Positions 19,577-25,500 of a stretch of 64,000 nt of DNA are shown here, piece by piece. The translations under genes were made by a program, and so were the position numbers. The DNA comes from Paramecium tetraurelia. Lineage: Eukaryota. The notes under the pieces are model-generated. The model did not search any database and was not told the DNA's origin. It was given only the letters and a program-made list of their open reading frames with translations. The stretch lies in the NCBI GenBank assembly GCA_000165425.1, contig CT867987.1, forward strand, positions 248,001 to 312,000, given 5' to 3'. Position 1 is the stretch's first letter; each line of letters begins with the position of its first letter.

Positions 19577-22500
19577 ATGTCGGAATCACTTGAAAGTACT
19601 TCATTAAATCGATATTAGAGTAATAATTCCAAGGTCCTTAGTCTCTTTTAATGTCAAATTGCGTAGGCTTTCAAGAAGGTGATTTTCTACAACCTCCAAG
19701 TTAAAATTCGTACTCTGTTCCTGTTGAACTTTCTCCTAATAATCCAATTAAAAATTAAATAAAAAAGACATTGATTACTGGAACTGGCAGGTAGAGCGTG
19801 TTTGAAGAAGAATCTTCAAATCATGGTAAACCTGAATTTTTAAGATTAATTATTGCAAAAAGCTTATAAAATAACTTTATTAATAATCTATGGAATAAGT
19901 CATACTTACGAAAATTACATTAATTGACGGAGTATCAAATAAAAACAATAGACGATTTAAGATTTAGCAGTTCCTCTGCTGAGTCAGCTTATGACAGCTT
20001 GGATGTATTTACACCTTATAGCAAATTCATATTCTTTTGGGATATTTCGTAGATAGTGTTATATTTATTTATATTTTTTTGGTTGCCTTTTAAATTATCA
20101 TTCGGAATGAATGAGATTTGTGAGTTTTGGAATGATAAAAATAAACACGATTTGGAAATCATCATCCTTAGCATCTTGTCATGCGATGTTTTGGTTGGAA
20201 TGAATATGGCCTTTATTCACAAAGGATAAATCATCAAAAATAGAAAGAGGATTTTATAAAATTATATTAGATAGTACGCATTTGTCGATTTAGTATTATT
20301 TTATTTATTATCTTGGTCTCATTAGCAGTATTGACCTTCCATTTCTTTCTTCATGACAATTCAAAATAAGCAACCACCCTGTTAATTATATTTGCAGTTG
20401 TATTTTACATCTTAAGACTCAACAAAATAGAAAAGATACTCGCCCTAATATAGGAGTAAATTTGATTATAAATTATTAGATTCTTCAATTTGAATGGTAA
20501 ATTAAATGATCTACTTGCATTAGTTTAGATGATTACAATCATTATTTATATAATCCACATTTGCGCATGTGTTTGGCATGGCATAGCTAATATTAATTGT
20601 CATCCCAATTGGATAGATTCCTATGAATTGAGAGATACTGATATTTATGTTAGGTACAATGTAGCTGTCTATTGGGCAACCATGACAATGACTACAGTAG
20701 GATATGGTGATGTTACTGCAAAAAACAACATTGAAACTGCTGTTAATAATGTCACTATGTTAATTGGTAGTATTGTTTTCGCATATTCAGTTAATAGTAT
20801 AGGAATATTTGTATCTAATCTATATAAGAGTAGATAAGAGTACAATCACACTGTAAACTTAATCAATACATTTATGTCTAAAAACAATATCTAATTTGAT
20901 CTTTAGACAAGAATTCGAAGTTATTTGCAATATATATGGCAAGAAGAGTAGTAGATGAACGAAGAACAAGTGGGTTCTATTGTTTAAAAGTTAAGTAGTC
21001 ATCTTCAAGATGAGCTAAATTTTCAATTAAAGGGCAACATATTAAATTAATGTAAAATAATAACCAAGACTTTTTCACTTAAATTCAAGCAACATCTCTT
21101 ATTGGTGATGGAAGAACAAAGCTTTTCTCCTGAAGAAAGAATAATAACGGTACAATAAAGAATACTATAATTTTAGTTGAATTAACAGGATGATAATTCT
21201 TTGTATATAATAACAAAAGGGGAAGTGGAGATAGTATTTGAAGGAACCAATCAAAATGGAGATGTGCTACAAAGAAACAGTTTGTAATGGTTGAAGGCAG
21301 GAGACTACTTCGGTGAGATATCATTCATAACAGGCAAATTGAGAAGTGCATCTGCAATTGCAAGAGGGTTTGTGAGAGTGTTTAAAATCAAAAGGGAATA
21401 GTTATTAAAGCTCTTAACCTTATTTCCTAATGAGTATGAGAAGTTTTGCTGTTTGAAAGACTAATTGATGATGAAATAAGCAGTAGCATCAGCCATATCA
21501 TGTTATAGTTGCAAGAGTGATTAGCATCTGATAAATGAGTGTCACTTCCATCATTATTGTGCAGACATGGAATCCCTGATAAAGAAGGAGTAATTCCCAG
21601 TTGAACAAAAGAGGAAATCTTATGATCGTAGAGGCTACACAAGCAAATTGCATCCTTGGTTAAACCAATATGTCCTTACTAACAAAGCCAAATAATATGC
21701 GTATACAAATACTATAACGGATAATGATTCTGAGGAAAACGATGATGAAGAAAATGGTATATACTAATCAAGTGAGGATGATGAAGAATAAGCCCAATTG
21801 AGAGATAACTCGTAGTCTATCAGTGCCACTCAACACTTAAATGACACTGAGGATGAGGATAATAATAGGATCCCAAAGTATAAGAGAAACATAGCAATAC
21901 CTCATGAGACCATCAAGACTGCTGGATTTGGATAGCACAAATAGGAGAGACAATAGCAACATGATTCTCCTTAAATTGAGGGTGTGATTGCAGAATCAAA
22001 GAAATTGATCAACACCTATTAAGTAAAGCCTCCTCAAGGGGATAATAGAACTAATCCTAAGACATCCAAGAAGAGAATTACATTAGTTAAGGAGGCGGCA
22101 CAAGAGGAGCGATAAGGGTCTGAGTAATTTTAGAAGACATGTATAGCAATAATGTGTGATATTTTGTTTAGTTCGTTAAGCTACAAAGAAGAGATCTAAA
22201 ACGGCTAGAGGAGTCAAAGATCACAGTTAATTTACTGATGGTTATTTGAACCAAGAAGGTTAGTTGGCAGCGTATTTTGATAAGATGTAGATATTTAGTT
22301 ACTATTTCCCTATCAATAATTACGATGTTATTCTGAAACGCTATGCCAGAATTTAGAAATAATTCGGCAAGAAAAGAGTATTCCCTGATTCTTCCATTTA
22401 TAGTTTTTTTATTTTGACAATAAAGAAAGGCTATAAATTGAGAAGACTTGGAGAGGAATTATAAAATCGTGCTGGACCCTAAAAGTTGCCAATAACATCA

Positions 22501-22578
22501 AAAAAGCCACATAGAAAATCGAAACCAACTTTATTGTTTGGAAAAGACTTTATAATGAATAATAATATAAATGTGTGA
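19577..22578 (+). CDS. Cyclic-nucleotide-binding-domain K+ channel (KCNH/CNG-like), paralog 1
   Basis: YWATMTMTTVGYGDV pore, C-linker, CNBD FGEISFITGKLRSASA; introns 19596-19618, 20293-20315 (non-canonical), then 24, 27 and 31 nt; TGA 22576-22578. Confidence 0.93.
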
Positions 22579-25500
22579 TTCTTCTGATAGTTTATTTAGG
22601 AATTATTTCTAAGAAGGAGAATTCCAAGGACCAAATCCTCAACTTCTAAGCAACAAGGTTGTTTTTTAATAAGGAGATATTCAAGGAGATAGCAGTAAAT
22701 CAATTACTGTACCTGAATAATTTGTGATTTAGTAATCACCTGTACGAACTCCGAGGAATATGGAAAGGACTAAAACAATGGGAGGTCGTAGATCAGAATA
22801 TTAATCTGCCTACGATCAGGAGGATGTAGAATCGATAAAAGACAGCAAACCGTAATTTCTAAGGTTAATAATTGCTAAAAGTTTGTAAAACAATTTCATT
22901 AATAATTTGTGGAATCGATCTTATTTGAGGAAATTGCATCAATTGACAAAGTATTAGATAGAATAATTGGATGATTTATAATTGGAATAGGAATCATTTT
23001 CTAGTGTGGGAAATCAAAATACTAAATCTTTTATTTAATCGTTGGCCTTTTGGAAATTTATTGATGTCTTCACTCCTTATAGTAAATTTATCGTGATTTG
23101 GGATGTGTTCTAAATTTTGACTTACATAATGATATTCTTTTGGCTACCTTATAAAATATCATTTTAAATATATTTCATTAGCGATTTATTCGAGATGGAG
23201 AACACCAAAATTATAGAGATGCTTCTCCTATCAATTTTGGCATTGGATGTTGTAGTTGGCCTCAATCTGGCATTCATTTACAAGGGCTAAATTATAAAAG
23301 ACAGGAAGAAAGTAATAATAAATTATTTCAATTAATACGCATTCGTTGATTTGGTATGAATTACATATAACTTATGGTTTCCTTATTCACAGTTTCTGCT
23401 TAATTTTTCATTCCGAATCTCGATAGTCAAGACAACACGACCTTAATCATCCAGATACTGTTATGTGCAATCTTTTACATTCTCAGGAGTACTAAAATTA
23501 ATAAGATTCTCGCTTAAATCTAAGAGTAAGTACATCATTAATAATTTAGATTCTTCAATCTGAATGGTTCATTGAATGACATGGTTGGATTGATGAAACT
23601 ATTGATGGTAATAATATTTATAGCACATATATGTGGTTGTACTTGGCATGGTTTGGCATATTATTCCACCAGCTATTCTTGGCTCGATGCCTATAATTTA
23701 AGAGAAAGATCTAATGGAACTAAATACAATTACTCAATTTATTGGGCAACTATGACTATGACCACAGTCGGATATGGTGACATTACTGCCTAAAATAATA
23801 GTGAACTATTGATAAACAATATTACTATGTTTGTTGCTAGTATTGTATTTGCATATTCAGTCAACAGTATTGGAATATTTGTATCAAATATGTACAAAGG
23901 TACTATGGAATACAGTAGATCAGTTACTTTGATAAATACTTTTATGTCTAAGAATAAAATTCAATTTGATCTATAGACTAGGATTAGAAGTTATCTGGAG
24001 TATATATGGTAAGAAGAGTAAGAAATGAATGATGATGAAATAGGATCAATAATGAAGAAATTAAGTAGACATTTATAAGATGAATTACAATATTAATTAA
24101 GAGGGAACATTCTCAAAAATAGTAGAGTCATCGTGAAATTATTCTCTGAACAATGTGTAAAAAGTTTATTATAATAAATGGAGGAAATCTCATTCTCTCC
24201 TGAAGAACGAATTATAACTTGCAATTAGATTGATGATTGTTCTCTTTACATCATTACCAAAGGAGAAGTGGAATTACTGTTTTCTGGTAAAAATCAATTG
24301 GGAGATCTGATCAAAAAGAATTCCATTAAATCTCTATCTTAACAGGAGTGCTTTGGTGAAGTAGCATTCTTTACAGGGAACCCAAGAACTGCTACTGCCA
24401 TCTCCAAGGGATTCACTAAGGCATTCAAAATCAAAAGAGAAAACTTCATAGCCATTTTACAGTCTTTTCCGAATGATTATGAGAAATTTTGTGATGTAAG
24501 AGATCGATTAATTTATAATGAATACTCTACGTTATAGCTAAATTGTTATAGTTGTAATAGCAATAAACATCTAATCAACACCTGCCATATCCTACATTAT
24601 TGTGCTGATCAAGAGAAAATACTTAAGAAAGAACTCTACCCTGTTGAATAATTAAGGAACACCAAGTTTTACAGATAAAAAAACAATAAGGAACCCTAAT
24701 CTCAATCCATGCAGAAATACCATTCAGCAAGAGCTCATGATTTGATGCAGGATCTCAATTAAGAAGAAAAAGGAGGAATGGATGTTGATGAAGCTGATTC
24801 ACACACTCTGCCTATCAATGATGCTTATGAAGATGAAGAAGGTATTTAGATATATTATAAACACAGATCAATATTCATCAATTAATTAATAGAGAAGTTA
24901 ATCGAGAACATTAAGTTAGAGATAAACATAATAATAAGAAATAGATGATGATGAGAAAAATATTAAGAGTCACTCTAGAAGACAAATTTCGTAAAGATAA
25001 ACTGTTGCAACTGCTGGATTTGGAGTTGATTCTTAAAAAAAGAGAGAAAGTATTGATCTACCCTTAAATAGTTACTTGGAATGTTGAGGAATTAAGTAAT
25101 TCTAAAGATTCATCTGAAGAACAGGATTAAGTAGTCCTCCCAAAGTAACATGTAATACAGTAGAAATCAAACGAAAACCTCTAAAAACCATCACTCAAAA
25201 GATAACTTTCAAGAACGGGATCAAATGATGAACATTCAAAACCAGTTGCCAAATAATCATCATAACAAAAACATCAGTCCGATCTCGAAATCAAGTTTTC
25301 ATCTTAGAGAGAACAAGCAAGAAAAATCACTAATAGAACTAGAACTCACAATGAAGAATAACCTACAATAATTGGTGAAAATGCAACTATGAATAATATT
25401 TATTTTCCTGCTCCCACATTGTCTTTGTTGGTTTCAAATTTTGATAAAATGTCCATATTTCAATATTATTAGCCTCTGAATAATTATGATGCTGTTCTTA

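What the first reader, a model, noticed from the sequence alone, without database searches (positions are those of the whole stretch)
20293..20315. Same-position, same-length GT-TG intron in K+ channel paralog 1
Seen: YAFVDL|GTATTATTTTATTTATTATCTTG|GTC TCA TTA GCA. This is again 23 nt, phase 0, ending in TG before a GT exon start, while the intron interior is fully diverged from paralog 2. Retention gives TGA at 20332. The AG acceptors at 20325 and 20328 give 33 and 36 nt and still hit that stop. Two diverged paralogs sharing the TG end argues against sequencing error or independent decay. Caveat: in this paralog only, a canonical 20-nt GT-AG intron (20274-20293) also restores the frame, but it deletes the conserved YAFVDL.
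Basis: partly seen in the sequence, partly recalled or inferred. Interest (0 to 1): 0.8.

Follow-up and report, generated by a model that had tools for sequence, protein, structure and literature searches.

The report
Conserved tiny intron lacking AG end
Two neighbouring Paramecium potassium-channel genes, and their relatives in other species, are interrupted at the same spot by a tiny intron-like insert that does not end in the usual AG, so every public gene model gets them wrong and it is still unproven how the cell makes an intact channel.

Summary
In both tandem channel genes a 23-nt, AT-rich GTA...TG stretch separates YAFVDL (one frame) from VSL (another frame).

All 5 nucleotide differences in the 9 flanking codons are synonymous. 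No canonical GT-AG intron restores the conserved frame in paralog 2.

In paralog 1 the only canonical option is the 20-nt one. The public model uses it, but the one RNA assembly available does not.

Eleven protein models from four Paramecium aurelia species imply the same non-AG end: TG|G in three lineages, and CG (tetraurelia) or C/T-G in a fourth whose element is 25 nt. A sister subfamily reads DLVSL without a break.

The differing frame offsets (23 versus 25 nt) argue against ribosomal frameshifting and against restart at an ATG. They favour excision.

The RNA evidence is awkward. One RNA-seq assembly shows paralog 1 cut at the predicted GT but missing 24 nt (GT..GG, out of frame). It shows paralog 2 keeping the element while its next intron is spliced. 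The frame-restoring 23-nt form was never seen.

Best reading (about 0.5): an old intron with a degenerate YG acceptor, spliced imprecisely.

The parts
20293..20315 (+). Paralog 1 element: 23 nt, GTA...TTG. Removing it joins YAFVDL to VSLAVL.
   Evidence: GC is 3/23. Differences in the flanking codons are synonymous.
20293..20316 (+). The 24 nt actually missing from the one assembled transcript (GT..GG). The product reads ...DLSHQQY and then stops.
   Evidence: table 4 and table 8 record 1: 19901-20515, length 567, 0 other letters, 48 gap letters.
20274..20293 (+). Canonical 20-nt GT-AG alternative. The public P. tetraurelia model uses it; the RNA contig does not.
   Evidence: P0055 reads ...NYIRYIILFIILVSL. 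The contig keeps 20274-20292.
20323..20328 (+). Nearest downstream AGs (TAG then CAG), 10 and 13 nt after the TG. Using either gives a stop.
20332..20334 (+). The TGA reached on retention, and after removal of 24, 33 or 36 nt.
23354..23376 (+). Paralog 2 element: 23 nt, GTA...ATG, same position and phase. It is retained in the RNA contig.
   Evidence: table 8 record 5: 23141-24151, with only the 24-nt gap at 23526.
23357..23359 (+). The TGA reached two codons into the retained paralog 2 element.
   Evidence: The public models P0055 and P0056 end ...YAFVDLV.
19577..22578 (+). Paralog 1 coding region (cyclic-nucleotide-binding K+ channel). The start is taken by analogy with the primaurelia model.
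   Evidence: Pfam Ion_trans, Ion_trans_2 and cNMP_binding hits. Introns at 20456-20479, 21150-21176 and 22141-22171 are seen spliced.
22571..24841 (+). Paralog 2 coding region from its ATG to the end of the exon before the 24842-24866 intron. The 3' end was not traced.
   Evidence: Introns at 23526-23549, 24842-24866 and 25050-25071 are seen spliced.

Best explanation
The 23 nt are a tiny spliceosomal intron at an old, fixed position. That position is phase 0, between the Leu of YAFVDL and the Val of VSL, in the voltage-sensor-like part of a clade of Paramecium cyclic-nucleotide-binding K+ channel genes.

The 5' end is the normal GTA. The 3' end has lost AG and reads ...YG|GT.

Shown:
- Both flanks are under protein-level selection in two different frames.
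- No canonical intron joins those frames in paralog 2.
- The same non-AG junction is implied in four paralog lineages across four species.
- The spliceosome (or whatever makes the cut) does start cutting at this GT in paralog 1.

Inferred:
- A fraction of transcripts lose exactly 23 nt (GT..TG), and only these encode the intact channel.
- Because the acceptor is not AG, the second step is imprecise (24 nt, GT..GG, in paralog 1) or inefficient (retention in paralog 2).
- Both failure products carry an early TGA and would be targets of nonsense-mediated decay.
- The nearby downstream AGs (10-16 nt away) may help early 3' recognition, as in the human TG-AG tandems. Alternatively, in a 23-25-nt intron the cut may be set mostly by distance and a terminal G.
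For: (1) Anatomy. The element is 23 nt with a 5' GTA and a GC of 13-22%, against about 29% in the exons. Retention gives a stop codon. The 6 other RNA-confirmed introns in the 5.7 kb laid are 22-31 nt, GTA...AG.

(2) Selection. 5 of 5 differences in the flanking codons are synonymous, and exon 3 is best conserved in the frame reached by a 23-nt removal. Both paralogs keep a pore motif and a cNMP_binding domain downstream.

(3) Sister genes. All ten sister-subfamily models fetched (P0061-P0069) were inspected, and all ten read QYAFVDLVS(L/I)S... without a break: P0061, P0063 and P0066, and P0062, P0064, P0065, P0067, P0068 and P0069. This is the product expected here.

(4) Public models. Every public model of this clade fails at the junction, each in a different way. 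Some are truncated at ...DLV (P0055, P0056). Some start at the ATG that ends the element (P0001, P0003, P0004). Some read through in the upstream frame (P0057-59, P0073-75). Others use ad hoc introns (P0055, P0056, P0060, P0070, P0009).

(5) Back-translation.
- Codon 8 of the read-through is Trp (TGG) in P0057, P0058, P0059 and P0075. That gives TG|G at nt 22-24.
- P0060 has Met directly before VSFF.
- P0073 and P0074 against P0070 fit only a +1 offset over 19 and 23 consecutive codons. That makes the element 25 nt, ending (C/T)G|GTT, with CG in tetraurelia.
- Offsets of 23 and 25 nt cannot both be served by one frameshift or one restart codon, but they are irrelevant to excision.

(6) RNA. 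In run X6 the paralog 1 transcript is cut exactly at 20292|20293.

(7) Why it could have been overlooked. Paramecium pipelines accept only GT..AG gaps (PMC5663052 section 17; passages of PMC5485702).
Against: - The frame-restoring 23-nt junction was not seen.
- The only informative RNA data are one run's assembled contigs, at depth about 8 and about 14. They show a 24-nt (GT..GG) removal in paralog 1 that leaves the frame broken, and retention in paralog 2.
- Three raw-read runs had depth 0 at the paralog 1 junction and listed no spliced junction at the paralog 2 element. They add nothing.
- Contigs keep only the majority form, so a minority 23-nt form is not excluded. It is not shown either.
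- In humans TG acceptors are never the sole acceptor, and AG>TG mutants do not splice at TG (PMC2374985 section 12).
- Eleven of the 13 junctions are inferred from protein models, not read in DNA.
- Three of those (P0001, P0003, P0004) show ATG only because a predictor needed a start codon there.
Confidence: 0.5

Rival explanations
1. Mostly unproductive genes. The acceptor is simply broken, and transcripts are essentially all mis-spliced or unspliced and decay. In this view the clade is non-functional, or is kept at a trickle of output by drift in weakly expressed genes.
For: The only RNA forms seen are out of frame. Expression is low, with raw-read depth of about 0-5. Saudemont et al. argue that weakly expressed Paramecium genes accumulate poor splice signals (PMC5663052 passages).
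Against: Both halves of the gene stay open and conserved in four paralog lineages and four species. The pore and cNMP domains are intact. Only synonymous changes flank the junction. A dead gene would have collected TGAs and indels downstream. None of the 13 junctions examined (2 read in DNA, 11 inferred from models) shows a reversion to AG.
Confidence: 0.17
2. Translational recoding. The element stays in the mRNA, or a multiple of three is removed, and the ribosome shifts -1/+2 near GAT TTR to reach the downstream frame.
For: The forms seen are retention in paralog 2 and a 3n (24-nt) removal in paralog 1. Both leave the same -1/+2 requirement. In the 24-nt-deleted paralog 1 mRNA, a -1 slip after TTA would give DL-I-SLAVL, close to the expected DL-V-SLAVL (by hand).
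Against: There is no X XXY YYZ slippery site at the 7-nt window that paralog 2 allows, 23350-23356 (by inspection). The P0070 lineage needs the opposite offset, 25 nt and +1. In paralog 2 the product would carry 7-8 extra residues inside a helix that sister genes lack. The element is AT-rich and diverged like an intron. Programmed frameshifting in Paramecium is not known to me (recalled, not searched).
Confidence: 0.07
3. Two products. The upstream ORF ends at the TGA, and the channel core is translated separately from the ATG/TTG that ends the element.
For: The element ends in ATG in paralog 2 and its orthologues (P0060). Predictors start three models there (P0001, P0003, P0004). Paralog 1 has the near-cognate TTG.
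Against: It would split a transmembrane helix. The P0070 lineage has GCG at that place in tetraurelia. It would need re-initiation after an ORF of more than 260 codons. The transcripts span the junction.
Confidence: 0.05
4. In paralog 1 the real intron is the canonical 20-nt GT-AG at 20274-20293, as in the public model.
For: It is the only canonical stop-free solution, and the P. tetraurelia model P0055 uses it.
Against: The RNA contig contains 20274-20292 and is cut at 20293 instead. This intron deletes the conserved QYAFVDL. Paralog 2 has no equivalent GT or AG. The primaurelia orthologue model had to use a different, long intron (P0056).
Confidence: 0.03

Closest known systems
Ordinary Paramecium tiny introns (about 25 nt, 5' GTA ... 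3' TAG; retention visible to NMD)
   Same: Length of 23 nt, a 5' GTA, low GC, a stop codon on retention, and a position fixed among paralogs. [quoted passage not shown]
   Different: The last three bases are TTG, ATG or GCG instead of TAG or CAG. All 6 other RNA-confirmed introns in the stretch end in AG.
Human TG 3' splice sites in TG-AG tandems (Szafranski et al. 2007, PMC2374985; abstract and sections 7 and 12 read)
   Same: A GT..TG intron with an AG close downstream: 10/13 nt in paralog 1 and 16 nt in paralog 2, within the human limit of 28 nt. Paralog 1 has the human-type TTG motif followed by G. The TG is conserved between species, and the intron flank looks conserved too.
   Different: In humans TG is always an alternative to a productive AG and never the sole acceptor. 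Here the AGs give stops or the wrong frame, so TG would be the only productive site. One lineage has CG. Paralog 2 has A, not a pyrimidine, at -3. The cut actually seen in RNA is after GG.
Programmed ribosomal frameshifting at stop codons in Euplotes (recalled, not looked up here)
   Same: A ciliate gene whose two halves lie in different frames, with a stop at the end of the first.
   Different: There is no conserved shift site. The offset differs between lineages (23 versus 25 nt). The interior is intron-like.
Paramecium internal eliminated sequences (TA-bounded DNA excision; minimum size of about 26 bp is recalled)
   Same: A short AT-rich insert that interrupts a coding sequence.
   Different: It is present in the somatic assembly and in RNA. 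Neither the 23-nt nor the 24-nt removal has TA at both boundaries. It is also shorter than known IESs.

Membership tests
Paramecium U2-type tiny intron | Length within 20-35 nt | tested here: met
   The element is 23 nt in both paralogs. Other confirmed introns in the stretch are 22-31 nt.
Paramecium U2-type tiny intron | 5' end GT(A) | tested here: met
   GTATTA and GTATGA. The RNA contig is cut exactly before this GT in paralog 1.
Paramecium U2-type tiny intron | 3' end (T/C)AG | tested here: not met
   The ends are TTG and ATG. The RNA-observed end is TGG.
Paramecium U2-type tiny intron | Removed from mature mRNA to give the coding frame | tested here: inconclusive
   In one search paralog 1 loses 24 nt rather than 23, and paralog 2 retains the element. 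This is one run's contigs only, and raw reads had depth 0 at the paralog 1 junction.
Paramecium U2-type tiny intron | Composition unlike exons, and retention gives a premature stop | tested here: met
   GC is 3/23 and 5/23 against 0.29-0.30 in exons. Retention reaches TGA at 20332 and at 23357.
TG-AG tandem acceptor (human type) | Intron ends in TG with an AG within 28 nt | tested here: met
   The next AGs end at 20325 and 20328 (paralog 1) and at 23392 (paralog 2).
TG-AG tandem acceptor (human type) | TG used only as an alternative to a functional AG acceptor | tested here: not met
   Use of the AGs gives a stop or the wrong frame. No AG-spliced contig was seen.
TG-AG tandem acceptor (human type) | Splicing at the TG demonstrated in transcripts | tested here: not met
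   No 23-nt deletion appears in any of the 4 runs laid.
Programmed ribosomal frameshift site | Conserved slippery sequence and a constant direction of shift in relatives | tested here: not met
   No heptamer is present in 23350-23356 (by eye). The offset is +2 in three lineages and +1 in the P0070 lineage.
Internal eliminated sequence | TA dinucleotide at both boundaries, absent from somatic DNA | tested here: not met
   The boundaries are TTA|GT...TG|GT. Runs of the same organism whose kind is unrecorded ('?') hold 100% of the sampled words of the stretch.
Cyclic-nucleotide-binding-domain K+ channel | Pore with GYGD plus Ion_trans and cNMP_binding domains | tested here: met
   Pfam PF00520, PF07885 and PF00027 score above their cut-offs in both paralogs. 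TVGYGD is at 20700 and 23770.

The most novel reading that the evidence does not exclude
A whole clade of Paramecium channel genes depends on an obligate non-AG (TG or CG) acceptor that has been kept for a long time without reverting to AG. On this reading, in 23-25-nt introns the 3' cut can be placed without AG, by distance and a terminal G before GT. The resulting sloppiness (23 nt, 24 nt or retention) would be used, together with NMD, to throttle or regulate channel output.
Probability: 0.3. Interest if true: 0.8.

Novelty: new variant of a known kind. Interest (0 to 1): 0.6.

Why it matters
If the 23-nt form is made, it breaks a rule drawn from human data: that TG never serves as an intron's only acceptor.

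It would also give a compact natural system for asking how the second splicing step finds its site when AG is missing. The introns are only 23-25 nt, and several paralogs differ at position -2.

There is a practical consequence whatever the mechanism. Every public model of this channel clade seen here is wrong at this junction: truncated, fused to the neighbouring gene, or patched with an invented intron. Paramecium splicing pipelines that accept only GT..AG gaps will have discarded the relevant reads, so similar cases elsewhere in the genome would have been missed.

Tried and rejected
- Whole genome of the window: none is held.
- Related DNA from metagenomes: 4 loci were returned. The best, L001, is 40% identical and starts downstream of the junction. 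None is informative.
- Raw RNA reads (X19-X21, 58-nt reads): depth was 0 at the paralog 1 junction and no spliced junction was listed at the paralog 2 element, so they say nothing about splicing there.
- Earlier notes of this scan: nothing relevant.
- Literature on non-AG introns in ciliates: two full-text searches found no report. The searches match words only, and supplements were not read.
- The Haynes et al. 2003 paper on Paramecium K+ channel genes is not held.
- IES-type DNA excision was rejected because the boundaries are not TA.
- Ribosome hopping between matching Leu codons was rejected. It fits paralog 1 (TTA to TTG) but not paralog 2 (TTG to ATG).
- An assembly or sequencing error was rejected. 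Other runs of the same organism hold all sampled words, and the feature recurs in other species' models.
That P0072 carries a 30-nt and P0076 a 28-nt intron at this position, possibly ending in AG, is my hand reading. It is unverified and ambiguous (AAG or AAA).

Full report
**What the window is.** The window reads like a ciliate with TAA/TAG as glutamine. It is AT-rich, with GC of about 0.21-0.36, and has long ORFs only under table 6. A public Paramecium tetraurelia protein model (P0055) is 100% identical to the N-terminal ORF of paralog 2. No whole genome is held for the window.

**The two genes.** Two cyclic-nucleotide-binding K+ channel genes lie head to tail on the + strand.
- Paralog 1 spans about 19577-22578. 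Paralog 2 starts at 22571.
- Each has TVGYGD and Pfam Ion_trans, Ion_trans_2 and cNMP_binding hits above the cut-offs.

**The observation.** It is correct to the base.
- In paralog 1, YAFVDL ends at 20292. A 23-nt GTA...TTG stretch follows (20293-20315). VSLAVL then starts at 20316 in the frame shifted by two.
- Retention stops at TGA 20332. The AGs ending at 20325 and 20328 give 33- and 36-nt removals that still hit that stop. The 20-nt GT-AG 20274-20293 keeps an open frame but deletes QYAFVDL.
- Paralog 2 has the same layout at 23354-23376 (GTA...ATG, then GTT TCC TTA), with TGA two codons into the element.
- The two elements agree at 11 of 23 positions and are GC-poor (3/23 and 5/23), against 0.29-0.30 for the neighbouring exons.

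**Is it more than chance?**
- In the six codons before and three codons after the element, all 5 differences between the paralogs are synonymous.
- Exon 3 of the two paralogs is most alike in the frame reached by a 23-nt removal. That frame gives 23/46 identical and score 86, against 11/46 (score 10) and 19/44 (score 44) for the other two.
- An exhaustive scan of GT..AG removals of 15-45 nt around each junction finds one stop-free solution per gene. In paralog 1 it is the 20-nt intron. In paralog 2 it is a 39-nt removal that carries on in the non-conserved frame.
- So paralog 2 has no canonical way to reach its pore and cNMP domains.

**Relatives.** Three protein searches returned models from P. 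tetraurelia, primaurelia, sonneborni, octaurelia and pentaurelia.
- Sister subfamily. It is about 60-64% identical over the N-terminal part. All ten sister models fetched (P0061-P0069) were inspected, and all ten read QYAFVDLVS(L/I)S... without interruption. This is the product expected here.
- This clade. Every model of it breaks at the junction, each in its own way:
 - P0055 and P0056 end at ...YAFVDLV.
 - P0001, P0003 and P0004 begin with the Met encoded by the last three bases of the element, followed by VSLFTVSAQ.
 - P0057, P0058, P0059, P0073, P0074 and P0075 read on in the upstream frame.
 - P0055 (for paralog 1), P0056, P0060, P0070 and P0009 use differing ad hoc introns.
- Tandem arrangement. 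P0055 and P0056 also fuse paralog 1 to the N-terminus of paralog 2. P0060 fuses a paralog-1-like C-terminal part to a full paralog-2-like sequence. The tandem arrangement is therefore shared by three species.

**Back-translating the read-through models.**
- The eighth read-through codon is Trp (only TGG) in P0057, P0058, P0059 and P0075. Nt 22-24 are therefore TGG, that is ...TG|G, as in the window.
- P0060 has Met directly before VSFF.
- P0073 and P0074 against P0070 fit only a +1 offset, over 19 and 23 consecutive codons. In that lineage the element is 25 nt and ends (C/T)G before GTT. In P. tetraurelia the Ala codon in P0070 makes it CG.
- In total, 13 genes in four paralog lineages and four species have a non-AG ...YG|GT junction. 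Two are read in DNA and 11 are inferred.
- Three of the 11 (P0001, P0003, P0004) are weak evidence, because a predictor needs an ATG to start a model.
P0072 has 30 nt and P0076 has 28 nt, and each could end in AG. This suggests the intron position predates the loss of AG.

**RNA.** One search and one lay were allowed.
- Three raw-read runs had depth 0 at the paralog 1 junction and listed no spliced junction at the paralog 2 element. They say nothing.
- One RNA-seq run's contigs (X6) match the window without a single mismatch. They lack six canonical introns of 22-31 nt, all GTA...AG after right-shifting the aligner's placement.
- At paralog 1 the contig (19901-20515, depth 8.3) lacks 24 nt starting at 20293.
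 - That placement is unique. The base before the gap differs from the last deleted base, and the first deleted base differs from the base after the gap.
 - The removal is therefore 20293-20316, GT..GG. The product reads ...DLSHQQY and stops.
 - The 20-nt intron of the public model is not used.
- At paralog 2 the contig (23141-24151, depth 14.2) retains the 23 nt, although the 24-nt intron at 23526 is spliced.
- No contig shows a 23-nt removal or use of the downstream AGs.
- Contigs keep the majority path, so a minority form cannot be excluded.

**Weighing the mechanisms.**
- Excision. This explains the intron-like anatomy, the cut at the GT in paralog 1, the old shared position, and the fact that 23-nt and 25-nt elements both join DL to VS.
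- Ribosomal frameshift. It would need opposite shifts in different lineages, has no slippery site in the 7-nt window that paralog 2 allows, and would insert 7-8 residues that sister proteins lack.
- Restart at the terminal ATG. This fails for paralog 1 (TTG) and for the P0070 lineage (GCG), and it would split a helix.
- Plain decay. This is hard to square with intact, conserved downstream domains in four lineages and four species, and with no reversion to AG.
- DNA-level (IES) excision. The boundaries are not TA.
- Best reading. I take the element to be a spliceosomal intron with a degenerate acceptor whose productive 23-nt excision is inferred. Confidence is only about 0.5, because the RNA seen is out of frame.

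**Comparison with what is known.**
- Annotation and splicing studies accept only GT..AG gaps (PMC5485702 passages; PMC5663052 section 17). The latter reports that more than 97% of alignment gaps are GT/AG.
- Human TG acceptors exist in 36 genes. They are always alternatives, lie within 28 nt of an AG, and are never the sole site. AG>TG mutations do not splice at TG (PMC2374985, abstract and sections 7 and 12).
- Here an AG lies 10-16 nt downstream, as in those tandems. However, using it is unproductive, one lineage has CG, and the cut seen is after GG.
- Two full-text searches found no report of non-AG introns in ciliates.

**Verdict.** I rate it a new variant of a known kind, with interest 0.6. 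Junction-level RNA data would settle it.

Noticed in passing
window 22571-22578: The ATG of paralog 2 (22571-22573) lies just upstream of, and out of frame with, the TGA of paralog 1 (22576-22578). The two coding regions therefore overlap by 8 nt, with no intergenic spacer. The public models P0055 (tetraurelia) and P0056 (primaurelia) join paralog 1 to the paralog 2 N-terminus with an invented intron, and P0060 (sonneborni) joins a paralog-1-like C-terminal part to a full paralog-2-like sequence. The arrangement is therefore conserved. Where paralog 2's promoter and paralog 1's poly(A) site lie is open.
   Followed up: partly
window 21150-21176 and 23526-23549: Two RNA-confirmed introns (27 and 24 nt) are multiples of three and have no in-frame TGA. 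Their retention would be invisible to NMD. The Paramecium literature describes this class as counter-selected.
   Followed up: no
window 24154: In raw-read run X20, 4 of 4 reads show C where the window has T. The X6 contig shows the window's T at depth 22 (0 of 22 other). In X19 and X21 no reads covered the position. This may be a strain difference, or less likely editing.
   Followed up: no
window 19596-19618: There is a likely canonical 23-nt GT..AG first intron in paralog 1, just after a short first exon starting at ATG 19577. This is inferred from the primaurelia model P0056. The tetraurelia model P0055 starts at a later Met instead. RNA contigs did not cover it.
   Followed up: partly
L001 (metagenome contig, 2152 nt): This is a ciliate-coded (TAA/TAG read as Q) relative of the same channel family, 40% identical over the pore and cNMP region.
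   Followed up: partly
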